64,000 nt of DNA from Deltaproteobacteria bacterium (GTDB taxonomy: Bacteria; Desulfobacterota; Desulfobacteria; Desulfobacterales; GCA-2748835), in NCBI GenBank assembly GCA_002748835.1, contig PDTL01000026.1, positions 14,330-78,329 of the forward strand, in the 5' to 3' direction. The position numbers and the translations under genes are program-made. Positions 7,598 to 15,437 of the stretch are shown one piece after another (within the stretch, counting starts at the first letter, position 1; each line of letters starts with the position of its first letter). The notes under the pieces are model-generated. The model did no database searches. It was not told the DNA's origin and saw only the letters and a list, made by a program, of their open reading frames with translations.

Positions 7598-8962
7598 GTG
7601 GACCTGTTTTCCTATGCGGAGCATGACACGGATCCTAGGCGTTCGCCGCTGGCAGACCGCCTGCGTCCCGAGTCCCTTGCGGATTACGAGGGCCAGGACA
7701 CTGCCGTGGGGGATGGCTCCCTGATCCGGAATGCGATTGAGGCGGATCATCCGTTTTCCATGATCCTCTGGGGGCCGCCGGGGTGCGGGAAAACCACCCT
7801 GGCCAAGATCATGGCAAAAGAGACCGCCTCGCATTTTGTAGAAATATCTGCGGTCTTATCCGGGGTCGGGGATATCCGGAATGTGATTGATGCCGCCCGC
7901 AAGCAGCGCCGGCTGCATCAGAGGCAAACCCTTTTGTTTGTCGATGAAATTCACCGGTTCAACAAGGCCCAGCAGGACGCGTTTCTGCACCATGTGGAGA
8001 GCGGGCTGATCACGCTCATCGGTGCTACCACGGAGAATCCCTCCTTTGAAGTCATTCCAGCCCTCTTATCCCGGTGCCGCGTCATTCAGCTGGTGGCGCC
8101 GGACGCAGCCGCCATGAACCGGATTCTGGACAGAGCGCTCGCCGATGAGCACAAGGGGCTGGGGGCACTCCGGCTGTCTGTTTCAACTGAGGCCCGGATG
8201 CATCTGATCCATCAGGCGGACGGGGATGTGCGCATGCTGCTCAACAACCTCGAGGCAGCCGCGTTCATGGCACTGAAAAAACGGCCGCCTGGTGCGGATG
8301 GAGCGCGGGAGATCGCCCTTGATCTGGTCGAACAGACGCTTCAGAAAAAAGCACTGCATTACGACAAAAGCGGTGAAGAACACTATAATCTGATTTCCGC
8401 GTTTCACAAAAGCCTGCGCGGCAGTGATCCGGACGGTGCCCTCTACTGGATGGAGCGGATGCTTGCCGGCGGTGAAGACCCGCTTTACATTGCCCGCCGC
8501 ATGGTGCGGTTCGCATCCGAAGATGTGGGCAATGCCGATCCGCACGCCCTGACCATGGCCCTGAATGCCGTGGAAGCGTTTCGTCTCCTTGGCCATCCAG
8601 AGGGTGAACTGGCCCTTTCTCAGGCCGTCGTCTATCTGGCCACCGCGCCCAAGAGCAATGCCGTGTATGCGGCCACTCAATCGGTACGGCAGTTTGTTGC
8701 ATCCACAGGCTACCTGCCAGTCCCCCTGCATATCCGGAACGCGCCCACGGGCCTGATGCAGGACATGGGATACGGCGAGGGGTACCGGTATGCCCATGAT
8801 TATGAAGGCGGGTACGCGCCCCAGGATTATCTGCCTGACGGTCATGAAACAAAACGGTTTTATTTTCCGGTGGACCGGGGCTACGAGCAGGCCATTGGCA
8901 GGCGGCTCAGCCAGTGGCTGGAATGTCGCAGGCGGTCAAGAAAAGCGGCAGGGCGGTCGTGA
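7598..8962 (+). CDS. rarA: Replication-associated recombination protein RarA/MgsA
   Basis: [48 protein letters not shown]. Confidence 0.95.
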
Positions 8963-8973
8963 CCCGTAAACAG
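8934..8973 (+). repeat. 40-bp direct repeat copy 1 (spans rarA stop codon)
   Basis: GGTCAAGAAAAGCGGCAGGGCGGTCGTGACCCGTAAACAG. Confidence 0.9.
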
Positions 8974-9177
8974 CAGGCAGATGCGCGTCATGACATCAGT
9001 CAGGAGCGGCTGATGCGGGTTTAGGGATTTCTGTGCCGGCACGGGTGGGCCTGCGCCTTGAGATGGCAGGCGAAGGCAGGCGTCAGGGACGTGCCGATGC
9101 CAGTCGGGATATGATTGCCGACTGCCGGGGGAATGCTGCCGGTATCATGATCCGAGTCTTTTGCGGATTGAAGTGAA

Positions 9178-9207
9178 TTGACAACCCAGCCCAAGGGGGC
9201 TATTGAT
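9178..9207 (+). promoter_or_regulatory. Putative sigma70-type promoter of LRR cassette 1 (repeated at 10283 and 11409)
   Basis: TTGACA, 17-nt spacer containing an AGCCC/GGGCT inverted repeat, then an AT-rich imperfect -10. Confidence 0.45.
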
Positions 9208-9299
9208 AAATATATATCGTTAAAAGAACTTTCTGGGGAGCATAACGCTGACAGACATACGCTCCCCTTTTTCTGGTAACGCTTCTTATGGAGGCTGAT

Positions 9300-9962
9300 A
9301 TGTTTCGCTTAAATGTTTGTGATTGGTATGGTGTTGACTGTAACAGCGACAGAACTGCTGTTACACGTCTTGACCTTAATCATAACAGCCTCACAGGTCC
9401 AATTCCTGAGTCTATTGGAAAATTAAAAAATCTAGGATATCTTAACCTTGAGAGTAACAGCCTCACAGGTCCAATCCCTGAGTCTATTGGAAACTTAACA
9501 AACCTAAGCGGTCTTGACCTTGAGAGTAACGGCCTCACAGGTCCAATCCCTGAGTCTATTGGAAACTTAACAGGTCTAATAGGCCTTTACCTTTTGAATA
9601 ACAGCCTCACAGGTCCAATTCCTGAGTCGATTGGAAAATTAACAAACCTAATATATCTTCACCTTGACAGTAACAGCCTCACAGGTCCAATTCCTAATTC
9701 TATTGGGAATTTAACAAAATTAAGAATATTCGATCTTGATTCGAACAACCTATCAGGAGTCATTCCCACCACCATCACATCGTTGACCTATTTATTAAGT
9801 GGAGAATTACGTCTATATGAGAATTGCAATTTAACTACCCCGAATCAAAACGTGATAGACTTTATAGACAGTAAAAGCGACGGCGGTTATCAGAAAATTC
9901 TAGACACAAATGGACATTGCGGCGTCACCCTCAGTCCTATCTATCATTTGTTACTCAATTAA
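9300..9962 (+). CDS. LRR protein cassette 1 (24-aa plant-type LRRs); signal peptide and most of N-cap deleted in frame
   Basis: LxxLxLxxNSLTGPIPESIGNLTN repeats; GGAGG RBS before ATG 9300; C-terminal LSPIYHLLLN. Confidence 0.85.
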   Translation: MFRLNVCDWYGVDCNSDRTAVTRLDLNHNSLTGPIPESIGKLKNLGYLNLESNSLTGPIPESIGNLTNLSGLDLESNGLTGPIPESIGNLTGLIGLYLLNNSLTGPIPESIGKLTNLIYLHLDSNSLTGPIPNSIGNLTKLRIFDLDSNNLSGVIPTTITSLTYLLSGELRLYENCNLTTPNQNVIDFIDSKSDGGYQKILDTNGHCGVTLSPIYHLLLN

Positions 9963-9976
9963 AATATGGGAAGAAA

Positions 9977-10006
9977 AAAGCCGGCAGACACGCGTCTCCC
10001 GGCTTT
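9977..10006 (+). terminator. Hairpin terminator after LRR cassette (also at 11241-11270 and 12350-12379)
   Basis: AAAGCCGG-C-AGAC-loop-GTCT-C-CCGGCTTT. Confidence 0.7.
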
Positions 10007-10016
10007 CAGCATTAGG

Positions 10017-10056
10017 GGTCAAGAAAAGGGGCAGGGCGGTCGTGACCCGTAAACAG
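10017..10056 (+). repeat. 40-bp direct repeat copy 2
   Basis: 1 mismatch to copy 1. Confidence 0.9.
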
Positions 10057-10404
10057 CAGGCAGATGCGCGTCATGGCATCACTCAGGAGCGGCTGATGCG
10101 GGTTCAGGGATTTCTGTGCCGGCACCCGCTCACCGATGGAGATCCGCTGAATGGACGGGTGACGGAACGGGTGGGCCTGCGCCTTGAGATGGCAGGCGAA
10201 GGCAGGCGTCAGGGACGTGCCGATGCCTGCCGGGGGAATGCTGCCGGTATCATGATCCGAGTCCTTTGCGGATTGAAATGAATTGACAACCCAGCCCAAG
10301 GGGGCTATTTATAACTGAATATCGTTAAAAGAACTTTCTGGGGAGCATAACGCTGACAGACATACGCTCCCCTTTTTCTGGTAACGCTTCTTATGGAGGC
10401 TGAT

Positions 10405-11145
10405 ATGTTTCGCTTAACGGCACTTGTCGATCTCTACAATGCGACCCATGGTGTTCAGTGGGAGAGTCAAGACAATTGGAAAGTGCCAGGCACGCATGTT
10501 TGTGATTGGTATGGTGTTACCTGTAACAGCGACAGCACTGCTGTTATAGCCCTGGAGCTTCCTGAAAACAATCTCACAGGTGACATGCCTGAGTCTATTG
10601 GAAACTTAACAAATCTAACAGGTCTTGACCTTCAAGATAACAGCCTCACAGGTCCAATTCCTGAGTCTATTGGAAACTTAACAAATCTAACAGAGCTTTC
10701 CCTTTGGATTAACAGCCTCACAGGCCCAATTCCTGAGTCTATTGGAGACTTAACAAATCTAACATCTCTTGACCTTGGCTGGAACAGCCTTACAGGTCCA
10801 ATTCCTGAGTCTGTTGGAAAATTAACAAATCTAACATATCTTTACCTTGATAGGAACAGCCTCACAGGTCCAATTCCTGAGCCTATTGGGAATTTAACAA
10901 AATTAGATGGACTCTATCTTGATTCGAACAACCTATCAGGAGTCATTCCCACCACCATCACATCGTTGACCTATTTAGTAAGTGGAGAATTAACTCTATA
11001 TGAGAATTGTAATTTAACTGCCCCGAATCAAAACGTGATAGACTTTATAAACAGTAAAGGCAACGGCGGTTATCAGAAAATTCTAGACACAAATGGACAT
11101 TGCGGCGTCACCCTCAGTCCTATCTATCATTTGTTACTCAATTAA
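10405..11145 (+). CDS. LRR protein cassette 2; N-cap intact, signal-peptide core deleted in frame
   Basis: ALVDLY..T.G..W....NW......CDWYGV.C cap (LRRNT_2-like), six LRRs, same C-terminal tail. Confidence 0.85.
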   Translation: MFRLTALVDLYNATHGVQWESQDNWKVPGTHVCDWYGVTCNSDSTAVIALELPENNLTGDMPESIGNLTNLTGLDLQDNSLTGPIPESIGNLTNLTELSLWINSLTGPIPESIGDLTNLTSLDLGWNSLTGPIPESVGKLTNLTYLYLDRNSLTGPIPEPIGNLTKLDGLYLDSNNLSGVIPTTITSLTYLVSGELTLYENCNLTAPNQNVIDFINSKGNGGYQKILDTNGHCGVTLSPIYHLLLN

Positions 11146-11287
11146 CATGGCGACGCAGTGATCGCTTCGATTGTTGAGTCTCGTGTGCGGATTTCAACCG
11201 CATCGCATGAATGATTCCAGTTTGCGCGTATGGGAAGAAAAAAGCCGGCAGACAAGCGTCTCCCGGCTTTCAGCATTTAGAGATAAG

Positions 11288-11331
11288 GGAGATAAGGGGA
11301 CAGTCAAATGGAGATAAGGGGACAGTCAAAT
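11288..11331 (+). repeat. 22-bp tandem repeat x2 (GGAGATAAGGGGACAGTCAAAT)
   Basis: Two perfect adjacent copies plus a partial copy upstream. Confidence 0.85.
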
Positions 11332-11548
11332 AATACATTATTTCTTGTTGAAAATCGTGAACCTTTGATTTCCAAATGTGGCTACCCTGGCACACAAACA
11401 CAAATGAATTGACAACCCAGCCCAATGGGGCTATTTATAAATGCATATAAATGCATATAAATGTATATCGTTAAAAGGACTTTCTGGGGAGCATAACGCT
11501 GACAGACCTATGATCCCTTTTTCTGGTAACGCTTTCATGGAGGCTGAT

Positions 11549-12254
11549 ATGTTTCGCTTGACTGTGTTGGTTTCAGGTTTACTGTTTGCATTGTGTGGTA
11601 ATGCGTTTGGCGATTTAGCGACTGACAGAGCGGCGCTTGTCGATCTCTACGATGCGACCCATGGTGATCAGTGATCTCACAAGCTCAATTCCTAATTCTA
11701 TTGGAAACTTAACAAATCTAACAATTCTTTTTCTTTACTATAATAACCTCACAGGTCCAATCCCTGAGTCTATTGGAGATTTAACAAATCTAACAGATCT
11801 TAGGCTTTACGGTAACAGCCTCACAGGACCAATTCCTGAGTCTATTGGAAACTTAACAAATCTAACCGATCTTTTCCTTTGGAAAAACAGCCTCACAGGT
11901 CCAATCCCTGCGTCTATTGGAAACTTAACAAATCTAAAATGGCTTTGGCTTAATCGTAACAGCCTCACAGGACCAATTCCTGAGTCTATTGGGAATTTAA
12001 CAAAATTAAAAAGCTTCCATCTTTATACGAACAGCCTATCAGGCGTCATTCCCACCACCATCACAGCGTTGACCGATTTAAATAGTGGAAGCTTAGGTCT
12101 ATATGAGAATTGCAATTTAACTACCTCGAATCAAAGCGCGATAGCCTTTATCAATAGTAAAGCCACCGGCGGTTATCAAAAAATTCTAGACACAAATGGA
12201 CATTGCGTCGTCACCGTCACCCTCAGTCCTATTTATCATTTGTTACTCAATTAA
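11549..12254 (+). pseudogene. LRR protein cassette 3; signal peptide intact, frameshifting deletion in the N-cap
   Basis: MFRLTVLVSGLLFALCGNAFG-DLATDRAALVDLY... stops at 11674; LRRs continue in another frame; ~110 nt missing relative to cassette 2. Confidence 0.85.
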
Positions 12255-12389
12255 AAGGACGACGCAGTGATCGCTTTGATTGTTGATTTTCGTGTGCGGA
12301 TTTCAACCGCATCTCATGAATGATTCCAGTTTGCGCGTATGGAAAGCAAAAAGCCGGCAGACAAGCGTCTCCCGGCTTTCAGCATTAGG

Positions 12390-12429
12390 GGTCAAGAAAA
12401 GCGTCAGGGCGGTCGTGAACCGGAAACAG
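12390..12429 (+). repeat. 40-bp direct repeat copy 3 (right boundary of island)
   Basis: 3 mismatches to copy 1. Confidence 0.85.
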
Positions 12430-12455
12430 GGGCCGTCATCTATCACCGGTCAGCG

Positions 12456-15377
12456 TCAATGAGACAGATTACGGCTGACCACTTTTTTGAATTCTTCCCC
12501 GGAATAGACCGTTTTGGCCCCAGACGATGATGCGGGGCAGGCCTCTGACTGGGAAGCAATGAGCGGTCTGAATCCTGTTGAAAACACAATCCCGGAACGG
12601 GATGCGTTCAGGGGGATGGAAATGGGCTGGTCATAGAGCAGGTAGGCCCCGAACGCTTCTCCCGCATCACCAATGTACCCGTCATTATCCAGGTCACTCC
12701 CTGCGTAAATCCGGTAGAGCCCGCCTGTCAGCCCGGTGAAATTGAAGGTGTAGGCACCGTCTTCGGGCGCCTGGTTCTGCTGGGAGACAACCGCATTGGT
12801 TTCATCATCCACAAGTAGAATATAGTGATAGGAAGCATTGGAAGCCTTGCTGGCCCTGAAATACTGCAGGGCCACCGGGATCGTCATCGTTTCAGCAGAA
12901 CTGGTGATCCGGATACTTGTGGAATGCGCGCCTTCGGAGAGACCGCTCCGGTCTGCGATGACCGTATAAACCCCAAGCCCGGTATCTGGATCCGTTGCAT
13001 TGGATGTCACCTGGAGCCAGGAGTCCTGTGGGGAAACGCTGGAGATGCTTAAGGGCGAAGCACCTGCATTGGCAAGGGTCAGAAACAGGCGGTCTTCCGT
13101 GAGGCCGAAATTGAGGGACGATGGCGACACGCTGAGCCGGGCCGGTGTTTCAAGATCACCGGTGCCTCGGAGCACCATGAGGGTTTCCGCTGCCCGTTTG
13201 CCGTTGATCAGGCCATAGCCGAACAGGGCATCTTTTCCCGGTTCTCCGATATCTTCCGTGAGCCGGCCGTCTTGCAGGAGCTCATCTGCGAGCGCCGGTG
13301 TCAGATTAGGATACCCCGCTTTCATCAGGGCGAAAAAACCTGTGACATGCGGGGCTGCCATGGAGGTGCCCTGCTCAAAGGTGTAGACATGCTGGATAGA
13401 CCCGGTGCTGTCGTCCCCGGCGGTGCTGAGGATTCCGTCTCCATATCCGTCACCGTTCACATCTGTGGCGGTCACTCCTCCGGGAGCGGCCACATCTATC
13501 CAGGATCCGTAATTGGAGTAAAAGGCAGATGCTTTCTGCAGGGTAACGGCAGATACGGCGGTCACGCCTGGATAGGCAGCTGGATATGCCTGGATCCGTG
13601 TGGCTTCGTTTCCGGCAGCGGCCACCACATGGATACCAAGGCTTCGGATCTGCTCGTAAAGGGCGGCTTCGGACTCCGTATAGCCGGCGCCACCCAGGCT
13701 CATATTGATGATATCCGCAGGCGGATCCAGGATCCGTCCGGAGTCATTGGAGAGTCCCGCCGCATAACGGACCGCCTGAATGATGTCATAGGTATATCCT
13801 CCCTCTTTTCCGAGTACCCGCAGGGGGATGAGGGTGGCTGACGGTGCCACGCCGGCAATGCCGGTGCTGTTTCCCGTCACACCAGCAATGGTGCCGGCCA
13901 CATGGGTGCCGTGAAAGCTGCTATTCCCGTTGATGCTCTGGTCTCCGGGGTCTGACGGGTCCGCATCTATGCCATCGCCGTCAAGGGCGTTTTCCGGATC
14001 GCTGATGAAATCATATCCTGCCGTCAGCTGTCCGGCAAGGTCCGGGTGGTCGGTCAGCACGCCGGTATCAATGACCGCGCACCGGACACCAGACCCGTCC
14101 GTGAGTGACCAGAGCGAGGAGAGCTGGATCATGTCATAGTGCCACTGGTAGGTGTAGAGCGGATCATCCGGAGCCACTGCACAGGGTTTGCGGATGAAGT
14201 TGGGGCTTGCATAGCGGACACGGGGAGAGTTGTTGAGTGATTTTACGGCGTACAGGAGCGAGAGCTTGCGTGCCTGAAGCGGCGCCAGCGCGCATGGAAA
14301 CGCGGTGATCAGGTCCGTGTTTTCAGTGTCTGACAGGTATGCCCGGGCGGTTTGCCTTTGTTTAGCGCCATCCGTACGGTACAGAAGGGTCGGGCACCCA
14401 GGCGTGGATGCGCCTTTCAGCTGCCACCCGGTCGGAATCGCGGTGAAGGTACTGGCGGTTGCCGCATCGGTTTCGGCCTGGCTGCTTTCATCGGTATATT
14501 CGGTAATGATGGTATCTGGATCAAAGGCGGTGTTGAGGGTAGGTCCTGTTTTTTTAGCAAGGCCGGCATCCCCGATAAACCGGCTGATGATGAGGTTGTA
14601 GGCAGATGCACCGCTGTACGGATGTACGGCAATGTAAAAGGTGCCGGCTGCCGGTGCATCCAGAACTTCAGCATCGGTTTCTCCGACCGCGCCATCGACC
14701 AGGTTTTCGTCCGCATCGAAAATAAACAGGTCCAGATCCGCATGAGGATCGGCTATGATTAGCTGGATCACTTCATCGCCAGTAAAGTCCACGGCAAAGA
14801 AATCAAAGATATCTCCGGACAGAAACGAGCTCCCCTGGGACCCGTTGAGCGGCTGATTGACATACCCGCCCAGCACCACCGGACAGCTGATCGTCTGGGC
14901 GTTACGAATTGTATTGTTGGTCGTGTCGGCCACATTGGGATCATTGACATCGGCGTCCGTGAGTGTGGCACCGGGTATCTGTACAGTGCCGCTCAGGGAG
15001 AGGTCTCTGGCCGGGGGCGTCACCTGAATGGACAGGGTCGCGGTGCCTGAGGATCCTGCTGCATCCGTGATCGTGAGCGTTGCATCGTAGGTACCGGACT
15101 GGGTGTAAATATGACCGGTTGAGACGTCTACGGCAGAGGTGCCGTCTCCGAAATTCCATGCGTAGGAGAACGGTTCACGCCATCCGGTCTCTTGCGCGTC
15201 GGTTGCGTCAAAGGTAACAGACAGCGGTGCGGCACCGGACGCCGGAGAAGCCGTAAACCGGATGGCAGAAGGGGGAGGGCCGTCGTTATCAGAAGCATCA
15301 CTTCCACCGCCGCCACCGCAGCTGATGCAGAAGAGAAGCAGGACAAGGACGAAACAACAGGAAATGGCATGCCGCAT
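12456..15377 (-). CDS. Lipoprotein S8 (subtilisin-like) serine peptidase with PKD domain
   Basis: Lipobox-like LFCISC-GGGGG, PKD (WNFGDG..H.Y...G.Y), triad motifs VIDTG / HGTHVAG / GTSMAAPHV; AGGAGG before ATG 15377. Confidence 0.92.
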   Translation of the reverse strand: MRHAISCCFVLVLLLFCISCGGGGGSDASDNDGPPPSAIRFTASPASGAAPLSVTFDATDAQETGWREPFSYAWNFGDGTSAVDVSTGHIYTQSGTYDATLTITDAAGSSGTATLSIQVTPPARDLSLSGTVQIPGATLTDADVNDPNVADTTNNTIRNAQTISCPVVLGGYVNQPLNGSQGSSFLSGDIFDFFAVDFTGDEVIQLIIADPHADLDLFIFDADENLVDGAVGETDAEVLDAPAAGTFYIAVHPYSGASAYNLIISRFIGDAGLAKKTGPTLNTAFDPDTIITEYTDESSQAETDAATASTFTAIPTGWQLKGASTPGCPTLLYRTDGAKQRQTARAYLSDTENTDLITAFPCALAPLQARKLSLLYAVKSLNNSPRVRYASPNFIRKPCAVAPDDPLYTYQWHYDMIQLSSLWSLTDGSGVRCAVIDTGVLTDHPDLAGQLTAGYDFISDPENALDGDGIDADPSDPGDQSINGNSSFHGTHVAGTIAGVTGNSTGIAGVAPSATLIPLRVLGKEGGYTYDIIQAVRYAAGLSNDSGRILDPPADIINMSLGGAGYTESEAALYEQIRSLGIHVVAAAGNEATRIQAYPAAYPGVTAVSAVTLQKASAFYSNYGSWIDVAAPGGVTATDVNGDGYGDGILSTAGDDSTGSIQHVYTFEQGTSMAAPHVTGFFALMKAGYPNLTPALADELLQDGRLTEDIGEPGKDALFGYGLINGKRAAETLMVLRGTGDLETPARLSVSPSSLNFGLTEDRLFLTLANAGASPLSISSVSPQDSWLQVTSNATDPDTGLGVYTVIADRSGLSEGAHSTSIRITSSAETMTIPVALQYFRASKASNASYHYILLVDDETNAVVSQQNQAPEDGAYTFNFTGLTGGLYRIYAGSDLDNDGYIGDAGEAFGAYLLYDQPISIPLNASRSGIVFSTGFRPLIASQSEACPASSSGAKTVYSGEEFKKVVSRNLSH

Positions 15378-15437
15378 GGTGCCTCCTTGTTGAAAAGTGG
15401 TTTTTTTAACAATAAATACAATGCTCAAGGAACTGTG

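What the first reader, a model, noticed from the sequence alone, without database searches (positions are those of the whole stretch)
9300..11700. No cassette is complete: complementary 5' deletions, two sharing one breakpoint
Seen: cassette 3 keeps the signal peptide but lacks ~110 nt of N-cap, causing a frameshift. Cassette 2 lacks 69 nt in frame, removing the hydrophobic signal core. Cassette 1 lacks a further 78 nt in frame. Cassettes 1 and 2 both break right after ATGTTTCGCTTAA. The LRR blocks and C-termini carry no stops. A full gene can be rebuilt from the cassette 3 signal plus the cassette 2 body, which overlap at CTTGTCGATCTCTAC. Known: silent 5'-truncated donors are typical of gene-conversion antigenic variation (pilS, vls). 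Inference: silent donors, or export-disabled variants that recombination can reactivate.
Basis: partly seen in the sequence, partly recalled or inferred. Interest (0 to 1): 0.72.

Follow-up and report, generated by a model that had tools for sequence, protein, structure and literature searches.

The report
Tandem plant-type LRR genes, all 5'-damaged
Three neighbouring copies of a foreign gene for a secreted, plant-like leucine-rich-repeat binding protein have each lost a different piece of their front end, which looks more like a fast-evolving gene family being switched off than a programmed antigen-switching system.

Summary
Three tandem ~1.1-kb units encode plant-type LRR proteins. Copy 3 keeps the signal peptide but lacks 110 nt and is frameshifted. 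Copy 2 lacks 69 nt in frame (the signal core). Copy 1 lacks a further 78 nt in frame. Copies 1 and 2 break after the same 13 nt.

The pilS/vls reading fails two defining tests. Every copy keeps its own conserved upstream element, GGAGG, ATG and terminator hairpin. No full-length copy, and no second signal or N-cap segment, is in the 85%-complete assembly.

The genes look foreign: GC3 is 0.35-0.37 against 0.62-0.68 in neighbours. Outside relatives form tandem arrays, and all 16 with complete N-termini look signal-bearing.

All 25 xxLxLxx codons differ between copies (dN about 1.0; framework dS 0.11-0.15). The flanks of copies 1 and 2 are 96-100% identical around a divergent core, so gene conversion or unequal crossing-over has acted.

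Best reading: a birth-and-death LRR family with export recently lost. The shared breakpoint is unexplained. Reads were unavailable. This scan noted a similar hypervariable plant-type LRR cluster in another genome (e1-5020664).

The parts
8934..10016 (+). Repeat unit 1. It comprises a GC-rich block T+I (8934-9170, which begins inside the last 9 codons of the rarA ORF), the upstream element, the leader, c1 and a terminator.
   Evidence: T+I has GC 0.61, and its T part matches unit 2 at 43 of 44 bases.
9300..9962 (+). c1: a 220-aa ORF, MFRL joined directly to NVCDWYGVDC, then 6 LRRs and the C-cap. It has no signal peptide and lacks most of the N-cap. The breakpoint lies at 9312|9313.
10017..11276 (+). 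Repeat unit 2: T+I block (10017-10275), upstream element, leader, c2, an 81-nt 3' segment shared with unit 3, and a terminator.
10405..11145 (+). c2: a 246-aa ORF with a complete N-cap (LRRNT_2), 6 LRRs and the C-cap, but no signal peptide. The breakpoint lies at 10417|10418.
11277..12389 (+). Repeat unit 3: an AT-rich segment X (11277-11400) in place of T+I, then upstream element, leader, c3 and terminator.
11549..11674 (+). c3 5' fragment: 41 codons (a signal-like peptide plus the start of the N-cap), ending at TGA because of the 110-nt deletion. The breakpoint lies at 11673|11674.
11676..12254 (+). c3 body: the rest of LRR1, LRR2-6 and the C-cap, open but out of frame with its start codon.
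9171..9217 (+). Conserved upstream element containing TTGACA. It recurs at 10276-10322 and 11402-11448 (89-100% identity). I infer it to be the promoter region.
   Evidence: D7. The consensus scan did not call it a promoter.
9235..9272 (+). Leader hairpin followed by a U-run. It recurs at 10340-10377, and in altered form at 11486-11522. GGAGG lies at 9290-9294, 10395-10399 and 11539-11543.
   Evidence: No Rfam match.
9977..10006 (+). Terminator-like hairpin after the stop codon. It recurs at 11241-11270 and 12350-12379.
   Evidence: -17.9 kcal/mol for the two fragments whose fold is the hairpin alone (-22.2 for the third, whose fold adds outer pairs); z -1.2 to -2.2. Also (D4).
12390..12429 (+). 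Stub of a further unit: 40 nt, about 90% identical to the start of block T. It lies just before the 3' end of the convergent subtilase gene.
   Evidence: (D4).

Best explanation
The locus is a horizontally acquired family of genes for small secreted plant-type LRR binding proteins (signal peptide, Cys N-cap, six 24-residue LRRs, Cys C-cap, hydrophobic tail). It was amplified in tandem in this host, downstream of rarA, to at least three units plus the stub of a fourth. The family has evolved by unequal crossing-over or gene conversion together with diversifying selection on the concave xxLxLxx face. This is the birth-and-death pattern known from plant pgip and R-gene clusters. In this genome every copy has lost an export-competent 5' end by deletion: c3 is a frameshifted pseudogene, and c1 and c2 are signal-less ORFs. 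As a set of secreted proteins the array is therefore off, most likely through recent inactivation rather than as a programmed store of silent donors. Shown: the anatomy, the lesions, the composition, the substitution pattern, the mosaic, and the absence of another copy in the assembly. Inferred: the promoter, the order of events, and that the copies are not exported.
For: Lesions and unit anatomy. Foreign origin: the LRR genes have GC3 of 0.35-0.37 against 0.62-0.68 in der, rarA and the subtilase, and the nearest relatives sit on contigs of 31-36% GC. With the C-cap profile, 2 of 401 sampled genomes of the phylum matched; one is the window's own genome and the other is a weak match to the LRR part only. 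Amplification in this host: units 1 and 2 carry the GC-rich block that starts in the rarA tail, and a 40-nt stub of it follows unit 3. Normal state of the family: L024 holds two, and L025 at least two, tandem genes with signal, N-cap, LRRs and C-cap. All 16 distinct outside proteins with complete N-termini are signal-like, whereas c1 and c2 are not. Diversifying selection: 25 of 25 xxLxLxx columns vary, with pN 0.56-0.58 and dN 1.0-1.1, against framework pS 0.10-0.135 and dS 0.11-0.15. These positions flank the predicted beta-strands of a confident model (pLDDT 94.5). Recombination: LRR1-5 are about equally distant among all three copies, while LRR6 plus C-cap are 93-100% identical between c1 and c2, and 99 nt upstream of the c1/c2 breakpoints are identical. 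Lesions are young relative to paralog divergence: of 17 C-cap columns that vary among the copies, only 1 falls in the 23 columns invariant in four outside relatives. One search gives P(0) = 0.0006; P(<=1) of about 0.008 is my own arithmetic. No expression locus. No recombinase or mobile-element gene lies among the neighbours.
Against: Two of the three deletions are in frame, and c1 and c2 share the same left breakpoint. Independent neutral decay does not predict this. If c1 arose from a c2-like unit, a second deletion had to start at exactly the old junction. All three lesions lie in the first third of the gene, and no LRR body has a stop. c1 and c2 could therefore still make foldable proteins. 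The assembly is only 85% complete, is a metagenome bin, and could not be checked with reads. An intact copy elsewhere, or in part of the population, is therefore not excluded. The promoter is inferred from conservation only; the consensus scan did not call it.
Confidence: 0.55

Rival explanations
1. c1 and c2 are functional. In-frame removal of the signal peptide was selected, turning secreted binders into cytoplasmic ones (for example inhibitors or immunity-type binders). Only c3 is a pseudogene.
For: Both deletions are in frame and keep SD, ATG and the first four codons. c2 begins almost exactly at the start of the N-cap and gives a confident fold. All 23 family-invariant C-cap residues are intact in c1 and c2. 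If the start had to be kept and the hydrophobic core removed, possible left breakpoints are confined to about 12 nt, which makes a shared breakpoint less surprising (inference).
Against: None of the 16 distinct outside relatives lacks a signal-like N-terminus. The caps carry the paired cysteines typical of extracytoplasmic LRR proteins. c1 has lost the N-cap helix. In the recently shared C-terminal 70 codons, c1 and c2 differ by 7.0 nonsynonymous and 1.0 synonymous changes; this gives no sign of purifying selection, though the numbers are small. The 99-nt identity up to the junction points to common descent or conversion of the 5' module, not to two independent selected events.
Confidence: 0.15
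2. The array is a programmed recombinational switch. No copy is export-competent, and recombination between copies (c3 5' end with c2 body) creates a secreted variant in a subpopulation. Further exchange among LRR cores varies the binding face.
For: The lesions are complementary, and c2 and c3 share a 43-nt stretch at 93% identity. pilE/pilS recombination is reported to use conserved stretches of 1-34 bp (passage in PMC4534519). The mosaic shows that core and flanks of c1/c2 have different histories. The binding face is hypervariable.
Against: Every copy has its own expression signals. There is no expression site. No recombinase, G4-type or other initiating element was seen among the neighbours. 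With three random 5' lesions, complementarity is the expected outcome. Intact relatives are ordinary tandem arrays of complete genes. The longest exact run in the c2/c3 overlap is 15 nt. No population data exist.
Confidence: 0.08
3. The picture is partly an artefact of metagenome assembly or binning. The contig is a consensus or chimera of strains, and an intact allele exists in the population.
For: The genome is an 85%-complete bin of 38 contigs. Units 1 and 2 share exact repeats of 99, 83 and 62 nt, and such repeats can confuse short-read graphs.
Against: Each deletion junction joins sequences with no shared k-mer, so reads spanning it must exist. The three units have distinct flanks and cores. 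No alternative fragments of signal or N-cap sequence occur on any other contig.
Confidence: 0.12

Closest known systems
Plant PGIP and SERK-type extracellular LRR proteins, and plant pgip/R-gene clusters evolving by birth and death
   Same: The repeat is the 24-residue plant-specific type, with an LRRNT_2 cap (CxWxGVxC). Best matches to solved structures by sequence: FLS2 at 1e-142, then GSO1, MIK2 and ERL1. Best matches by fold: GSO1, FLS2, OsSERK2 (TM 0.66/0.74) and PGIP 1OGQ. The genes are clustered in tandem, variation is concentrated in xxLxLxx, and pseudogenes and remnants occur in the cluster, as described for legume pgip loci (passages read in PMC4115169).
   Different: The host is bacterial (a Desulfobacterales-type bin according to earlier notes of this scan, which I did not verify). 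There are only 6 repeats and 4 cysteines. A C-cap with a hydrophobic tail ...SPIYHLLLN is shared only with a bacterial/metagenomic family. Here no copy retains an export-competent 5' end.
Neisseria pilE/pilS and Borrelia vlsE/vls gene-conversion antigenic variation
   Same: Tandem partial copies with variable segments between conserved ones, and signs of segmental exchange between copies.
   Different: Silent pilS copies lack promoters and ribosome-binding sites and feed one expressed locus (PMC4534519, passage). Here all copies keep upstream element, SD, ATG and terminator, and no expressed full-length locus was found. There is no evidence of host association.
Metagenomic bacterial family signal + N-cap + LRR + C-cap ending P[IV]I.YLL[ND] (for example P0016, named by its source 'Two component regulator three Y domain protein', and P0171, P0206)
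   Same: Same architecture and C-terminal tail. P0016 is 51% identical over the full length of c2. The genes are arranged as tandem paralogs.
   Different: Those members have signal peptides. They sit in AT-rich genomes. Some are multi-module fusions or carry extra N-terminal domains.
Earlier finding of this scan, e1-5020664: hypervariable plant-type LRR lipoprotein cluster in a Dehalococcoidia genome
   Same: Tandem genes of near-identical plant-type LRRs with wildly variable ligand-facing residues (as summarised; I did not re-examine it).
   Different: That cluster was described as intact surface lipoproteins. The 5' lesions and shared breakpoint are particular to this locus.

Membership tests
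pilS/vls-type silent-cassette gene-conversion system | One full-length, promoter-driven expression locus that receives donor segments | tested here: not met
   Only three copies occur in the assembly, all in this array and all 5'-damaged. The signal segment and the N-cap segment occur nowhere else. Caveat: the assembly is 85% complete.
pilS/vls-type silent-cassette gene-conversion system | Donor copies lack promoter, ribosome-binding site and start (PMC4534519 passage) | tested here: not met
   All three units keep the 47-nt upstream element (89-100% identity), the 66-nt leader (91-100%), GGAGG five bases before the ATG, and a terminator hairpin.
pilS/vls-type silent-cassette gene-conversion system | Variable segments bounded by short conserved segments usable for recombination | tested here: met
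   25 of 25 xxLxLxx codon columns vary between near-invariant framework stretches. Exact shared runs of up to 38-99 nt occur between units.
pilS/vls-type silent-cassette gene-conversion system | Ongoing unidirectional transfer visible as variants within a population | not testable with these tools
   No sequencing run was listed. No near-identical contig was found in metagenome contigs.
Plant-specific-class extracellular LRR proteins | 24-residue repeat LxxLxLxxNxLtGxIPxxIGxL | tested here: met
   72-nt period with 4.4-4.8 copies per gene. Per-position table. Pfam LRR_1 and LRR_8 match.
Plant-specific-class extracellular LRR proteins | Cysteine N-cap (LRRNT_2) preceded by a signal peptide | tested here: inconclusive
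   LRRNT_2 reaches its Pfam cut-off only in c2 (21.6 against 20.7 bits). c1 keeps only CDWYGVDC, and c3 keeps only the first 20 residues after the signal. A signal-like N-terminus is present only in the c3 fragment.
Plant-specific-class extracellular LRR proteins | Curved LRR solenoid fold with caps | tested here: met
   The AlphaFold2 model of c2 has pLDDT 94.5 and pTM 0.89. The top Foldseek matches are plant LRR ectodomains with probability 1.00.
Birth-and-death LRR gene cluster (as in plant pgip/R genes) | Tandem paralogs with variation focused on xxLxLxx, exchange between copies, and pseudogenes or remnants in the cluster | tested here: met
   c3 is frameshifted, and a 40-nt stub of a further unit remains. 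Comparator passages come from PMC4115169.
Xanthomonas LRR type III effectors (XopAE, XopAC, XopL; NCBIfam) | Score at or above the curated family cut-off | tested here: not met
   66.2, 51.4 and 35.3 bits against cut-offs of 600, 450 and 500. This is generic LRR similarity only.

The most novel reading that the evidence does not exclude
The array is a contingency locus of a new type. A bacterium keeps several LRR binders with different binding faces, each with its own expression signals, and each blocked at a different point of the export/N-cap region. Only rare recombinants between neighbouring copies export a protein. That would give stochastic, reversible display of one binder out of a repertoire. 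The shared breakpoint would then mark a preferred recombination site.
Probability: 0.08. Interest if true: 0.75.

Novelty: new member of a known kind. Interest (0 to 1): 0.32.

Why it matters
If the ordinary reading is right, this is a clear bacterial example of the evolutionary regime known from plant immune-receptor and PGIP clusters. The features are tandem amplification, concerted evolution of the scaffold, extreme diversification of the binding face, and loss of members. Here the gene was acquired horizontally by a sulfate-reducer-type bacterium. It also points to an uncharacterised family of small secreted LRR binders with a conserved hydrophobic C-terminal tail. If the shared breakpoint and in-frame signal-peptide losses are not accidents, the locus would show either re-use of secreted binders inside the cell or a recombination-gated export switch. 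Either would be new and testable.

Tried and rejected
Reads: the look-up of sequencing runs listed no run. Neither junction support nor expression could be examined; none was listed.

Other strains: an exact 26-mer from the conserved C-terminal coding region had 0 matches in metagenome contigs. The genome-contig scan with c2 gave one 44%-identical Vicinamibacterales locus. The protein search with c2 gave no outside protein above 60% identity over 59% of the query.

RNA elements: no Rfam match in 8800-12600 at E <= 1. The sigma-70 consensus scan called no + strand promoter upstream of the genes (3 sites found in the region, all on the minus strand, against 5.7 expected). It did not call the post-stop hairpins as terminators either. 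Leader and terminator folds are only modestly better than shuffles (z -0.01 to -2.2).

Other collections: the plasmid search gave only hits below 60% identity. The Atlas search gave only generic LRR clusters. NCBIfam gave only sub-threshold LRR hits and no model for the C-cap.

Literature: a search for 'silent cassettes' + 'gene conversion' + 'antigenic variation' + 'leucine-rich repeat' found 0 papers. 'plant-specific LRR' + bacteria + 'horizontal gene transfer' found 1 unrelated paper. 'leucine-rich repeat' + LRRNT_2 + bacterial returned only plant papers among the 12 listed of 37.

Rejected ideas: a +1 frameshift at the c3 stop (no slippery re-pairing at CAG-TGA; my reading of the sequence). 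Microhomology-mediated deletion at the three junctions (0-1 nt of microhomology; my reading). I considered a diversity-generating retroelement but did not test it (no reverse-transcriptase search was run). Among the neighbouring genes scanned, none is a recombinase or reverse transcriptase.

I did not build the composite c3+c2 gene.
Full report
WHAT IS THERE. Between rarA (7598-8962, MgsA_C domain) and a convergent S8 subtilase with a PKD domain (12456-15428, minus strand) lie three direct repeats of about 1.1 kb. Each unit contains:
- a conserved 47-nt upstream element with a TTGACA hexamer (three copies, 89-100% identical, D7);
- a 66-nt leader (91-100% identical, D5) that folds into a hairpin followed by a U-run;
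- GGAGG five bases before an ATG;
- an LRR gene;
- a hairpin after the stop codon (-17.9 kcal/mol for the hairpin).

Units 1 and 2 also start with a GC-rich block (GC 0.61-0.63). Its first 44 nt are the last codons, the stop and the immediate downstream bases of rarA (43 of 44 identical between the two units). Unit 3 has an AT-rich segment X there instead. A 40-nt stub of the GC-rich block follows unit 3 (about 90% identical). The neighbourhood is core chromosome: rpsA-like S1 protein, a two-component system, der, rarA, TANGO2, gyrA, gpsA, radC, pgk. No recombinase or mobile-element gene was seen.

THE OBSERVATION.
- c3 (ATG 11549) encodes a signal-like peptide and the first 20 residues after it, then lacks 110 nt (c2 positions 10461-10570). 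It reaches TGA at 11672-11674. Its LRR body (11676-12254) is open in another frame.
- c2 (ATG 10405) lacks 69 nt (c3 positions 11562-11630), which removes the hydrophobic core and the cleavage region.
- c1 (ATG 9300) lacks a further 78 nt (c2 positions 10418-10495). Its start, MFRL, is joined directly to NVCDWYGVDC.
- c1 and c2 both break after ATGTTTCGCTTAA.
It sits in a 43-nt stretch that is 93% identical.

WHAT THE PROTEINS ARE. Pfam finds LRR_1, LRR_8 and LRR_14 in all three copies. LRRNT_2 is found in c2 only, just above its cut-off. Against solved structures, the best sequence matches are plant receptor ectodomains (FLS2 at 1e-142, then GSO1, MIK2, ERL1). An AlphaFold2 model of c2, built on a 40-row alignment, is confident (pLDDT 94.5, pTM 0.89). 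Only the last ~16 residues are weak. Foldseek puts it with GSO1, FLS2, OsSERK2 and PGIP.

The closest full-length relative is P0016 (268 aa, 51% identity, 100% coverage). Its layout is signal peptide, N-cap, LRRs and a C-cap ending SPIYYLLLN. The window's copies end SPIYHLLLN.

A profile of the last LRR plus C-cap found 13,465 representatives at E <= 0.001. Most of these match through the LRR part. Among the best 150, 25 (own protein included) match the whole profile at their very C-terminus. The 10 that I fetched all have hydrophobic N-termini and tails of the type P[IV]I.YLL[ND]. By a crude hydropathy rule, all 17 outside rows (16 distinct proteins) are signal-like, as is the c3 fragment. 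c1 and c2 are not.

In two metagenome loci the family occurs as tandem arrays of complete genes. L024 holds two. L025 holds two with complete starts, plus a first gene at the contig edge whose LRR body has no signal or cap in frame.

ORIGIN. The LRR genes have GC 0.39-0.42 and GC3 0.35-0.37. For der, rarA and the subtilase the values are GC 0.56-0.60 and GC3 0.62-0.68. L024 and L025 have GC 0.36 and 0.31. With c2 as query, 16 of 61 genomes of the order matched (own included), but only at 31-64% identity, mostly inside very large multi-LRR frames. With the C-cap profile, 2 of 401 sampled genomes of the phylum matched: the own genome, and one weak match to the LRR part only. I infer horizontal acquisition from an AT-rich lineage. 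Because units 1 and 2 include host-like GC-rich DNA that begins in the rarA tail, I also infer that the amplification, or at least its reshuffling, took place in this host. The stub after unit 3 suggests that the array once continued.

HOW IT HAS EVOLVED. I numbered each 24-residue repeat from the L of LTG. Positions 16, 17, 19, 21 and 22 are then the x residues of LxxLxLxxN. These differ in 25 of 25 columns among the copies, while positions 1, 2, 6, 10, 12, 15, 20 and 23 never vary.

Nei-Gojobori estimates for the three pairs:
- x positions: pN 0.56-0.58, dN 1.04-1.13.
- Framework: pS 0.10-0.135, dS 0.11-0.15, dN/dS 0.54-0.66.

I picked the x positions after seeing the data, but they are the canonical solvent-exposed positions. 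They bracket the predicted strands of the model, for example residues 73-75 and 97-99. The same concentration of variation in xxLxLxx is described for pgip and R genes (passage in PMC4115169).

The copies are mosaics. Over LRR1-5 the three are about equally distant (71-89% identity per 72-nt block). From LRR6 to the stop, c1 and c2 are 93-100% identical and c3 is the outlier, odd at 20 of 26 two-against-one informative sites. Upstream, units 1 and 2 share 185 of 191 bases, including a 99-nt exact run that ends precisely at the shared breakpoint. The next 75 aligned bases are only 83% identical. Flanks and core therefore have different histories, which requires gene conversion or unequal crossing-over.

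WERE THE COPIES FUNCTIONAL UNTIL RECENTLY? In the C-cap region, 17 columns vary among the three copies. Only 1 of these falls in the 23 columns that are invariant in four outside relatives. One search gives P(0) = 0.0006; P(<=1) of about 0.008 is my own arithmetic. Most divergence therefore accumulated under constraint, so the lesions are young compared with the paralogs. In the recently shared C-terminal 70 codons, c1 and c2 differ by 7.0 nonsynonymous and 1.0 synonymous changes. That fits relaxed constraint, but the numbers are too small to decide.

TESTING THE SILENT-DONOR READING. According to the review passage I read (PMC4534519), silent pilS copies lack promoters and ribosome-binding sites, and they convert an expressed pilE through conserved stretches of 1-34 bp. 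Here every copy has its own putative expression signals. The assembly (2.43 Mb, 38 contigs, 84.95% complete) also holds no fourth copy and no other instance of the signal segment or the N-cap segment. Complementarity of three 5' lesions is what chance would give anyway.

Recombination between c3 and c2 within the 43-nt overlap could in principle join an export signal to a whole body. The longest exact runs there are 15 nt, and nothing indicates that this occurs. I could not look for variants, because no run was listed.

WHAT REMAINS ODD. Two of three deletions are in frame. All three lie in the first third of the gene. c1 and c2 share one left breakpoint, with 0-1 nt of microhomology at the junctions (my reading). 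If the 5' module of c1 and c2 is one recent lineage, as the 99-nt identity suggests, then a second deletion began exactly at the old junction. If the events were independent, the identity upstream needs a conversion tract that ends exactly there. Selection for loss of export with retention of the start would narrow the possible breakpoints to about a dozen bases. That is the main argument for the rival reading that c1 and c2 are functional cytoplasmic proteins. I leave this unexplained.

VERDICT. The most likely reading is a horizontally acquired, tandemly amplified family of secreted plant-type LRR binders under diversifying selection, whose export function has recently been lost in all copies. 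That makes it a new member of a known kind. This scan has noted a similar hypervariable plant-type LRR cluster in another genome (e1-5020664; not re-examined here). The taxon label 'Desulfobacterales-type' comes from earlier notes of the scan, and I did not verify it.

Noticed in passing
11288-11331 and 11297-11341; also G000 contigs C17 (two sites), C36, C16, C18, C6: Segment X, between units 2 and 3, holds a perfect 22-nt tandem duplication (GGAGATAAGGGGACAGTCAAAT x2). Its core, GGGACAGTCAAATAATACA, occurs 7 times in the genome with up to 2 mismatches, against 0 for the reversed control. The copies are often preceded by a partial second copy and A/G-rich short repeats. It may be a dispersed regulatory site or the end of a small mobile element.
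   Followed up: partly
11337-11390: A 54-nt piece just upstream of the c3 promoter-like element is 93% identical to G000:C34:122372-122425. There it also lies upstream of a TTGACA and an ORF. It may be a shared regulatory region.
   Followed up: partly
9235-9272, 10340-10377, 11486-11522: The 5' leader of each LRR gene folds into a hairpin followed by UUUUU, about 20 nt before the Shine-Dalgarno. This looks like an attenuator. In unit 3 the stem carries three substitutions and a 1-nt deletion but re-pairs differently. No Rfam family matches.
   Followed up: partly
11436-11468: A 10-nt tandem repeat, TATAAATGCA x3.3, is present only in unit 3. It adds 20 nt between the TTGACA element and the leader, relative to units 1 and 2.
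   Followed up: no
C-termini: 9933-9959, 11116-11142, 12225-12251: All three copies end in the hydrophobic tail LSPIYHLLLN. The type P[IV]I.YLL[ND] is conserved at the extreme C-terminus of distant family members. The tail is modelled with low confidence and has no NCBIfam model. It may be an unrecognised sorting or anchoring signal.
   Followed up: partly
L025:1-921: In a related metagenome array, the first gene has an LRR body and C-cap but no signal peptide or N-cap in frame. A hydrophobic stretch lies in another frame upstream. It sits at the contig edge, so it could be a 5'-damaged copy like c3 or an assembly end.
   Followed up: partly
The signal+cap+LRR+cap unit therefore also exists as fused multi-module proteins.
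   Followed up: no
12456-15428 (minus strand): A 990-aa secreted-type S8 subtilase with a PKD domain converges on the array. I did not examine whether it is functionally linked to the LRR proteins.
   Followed up: no
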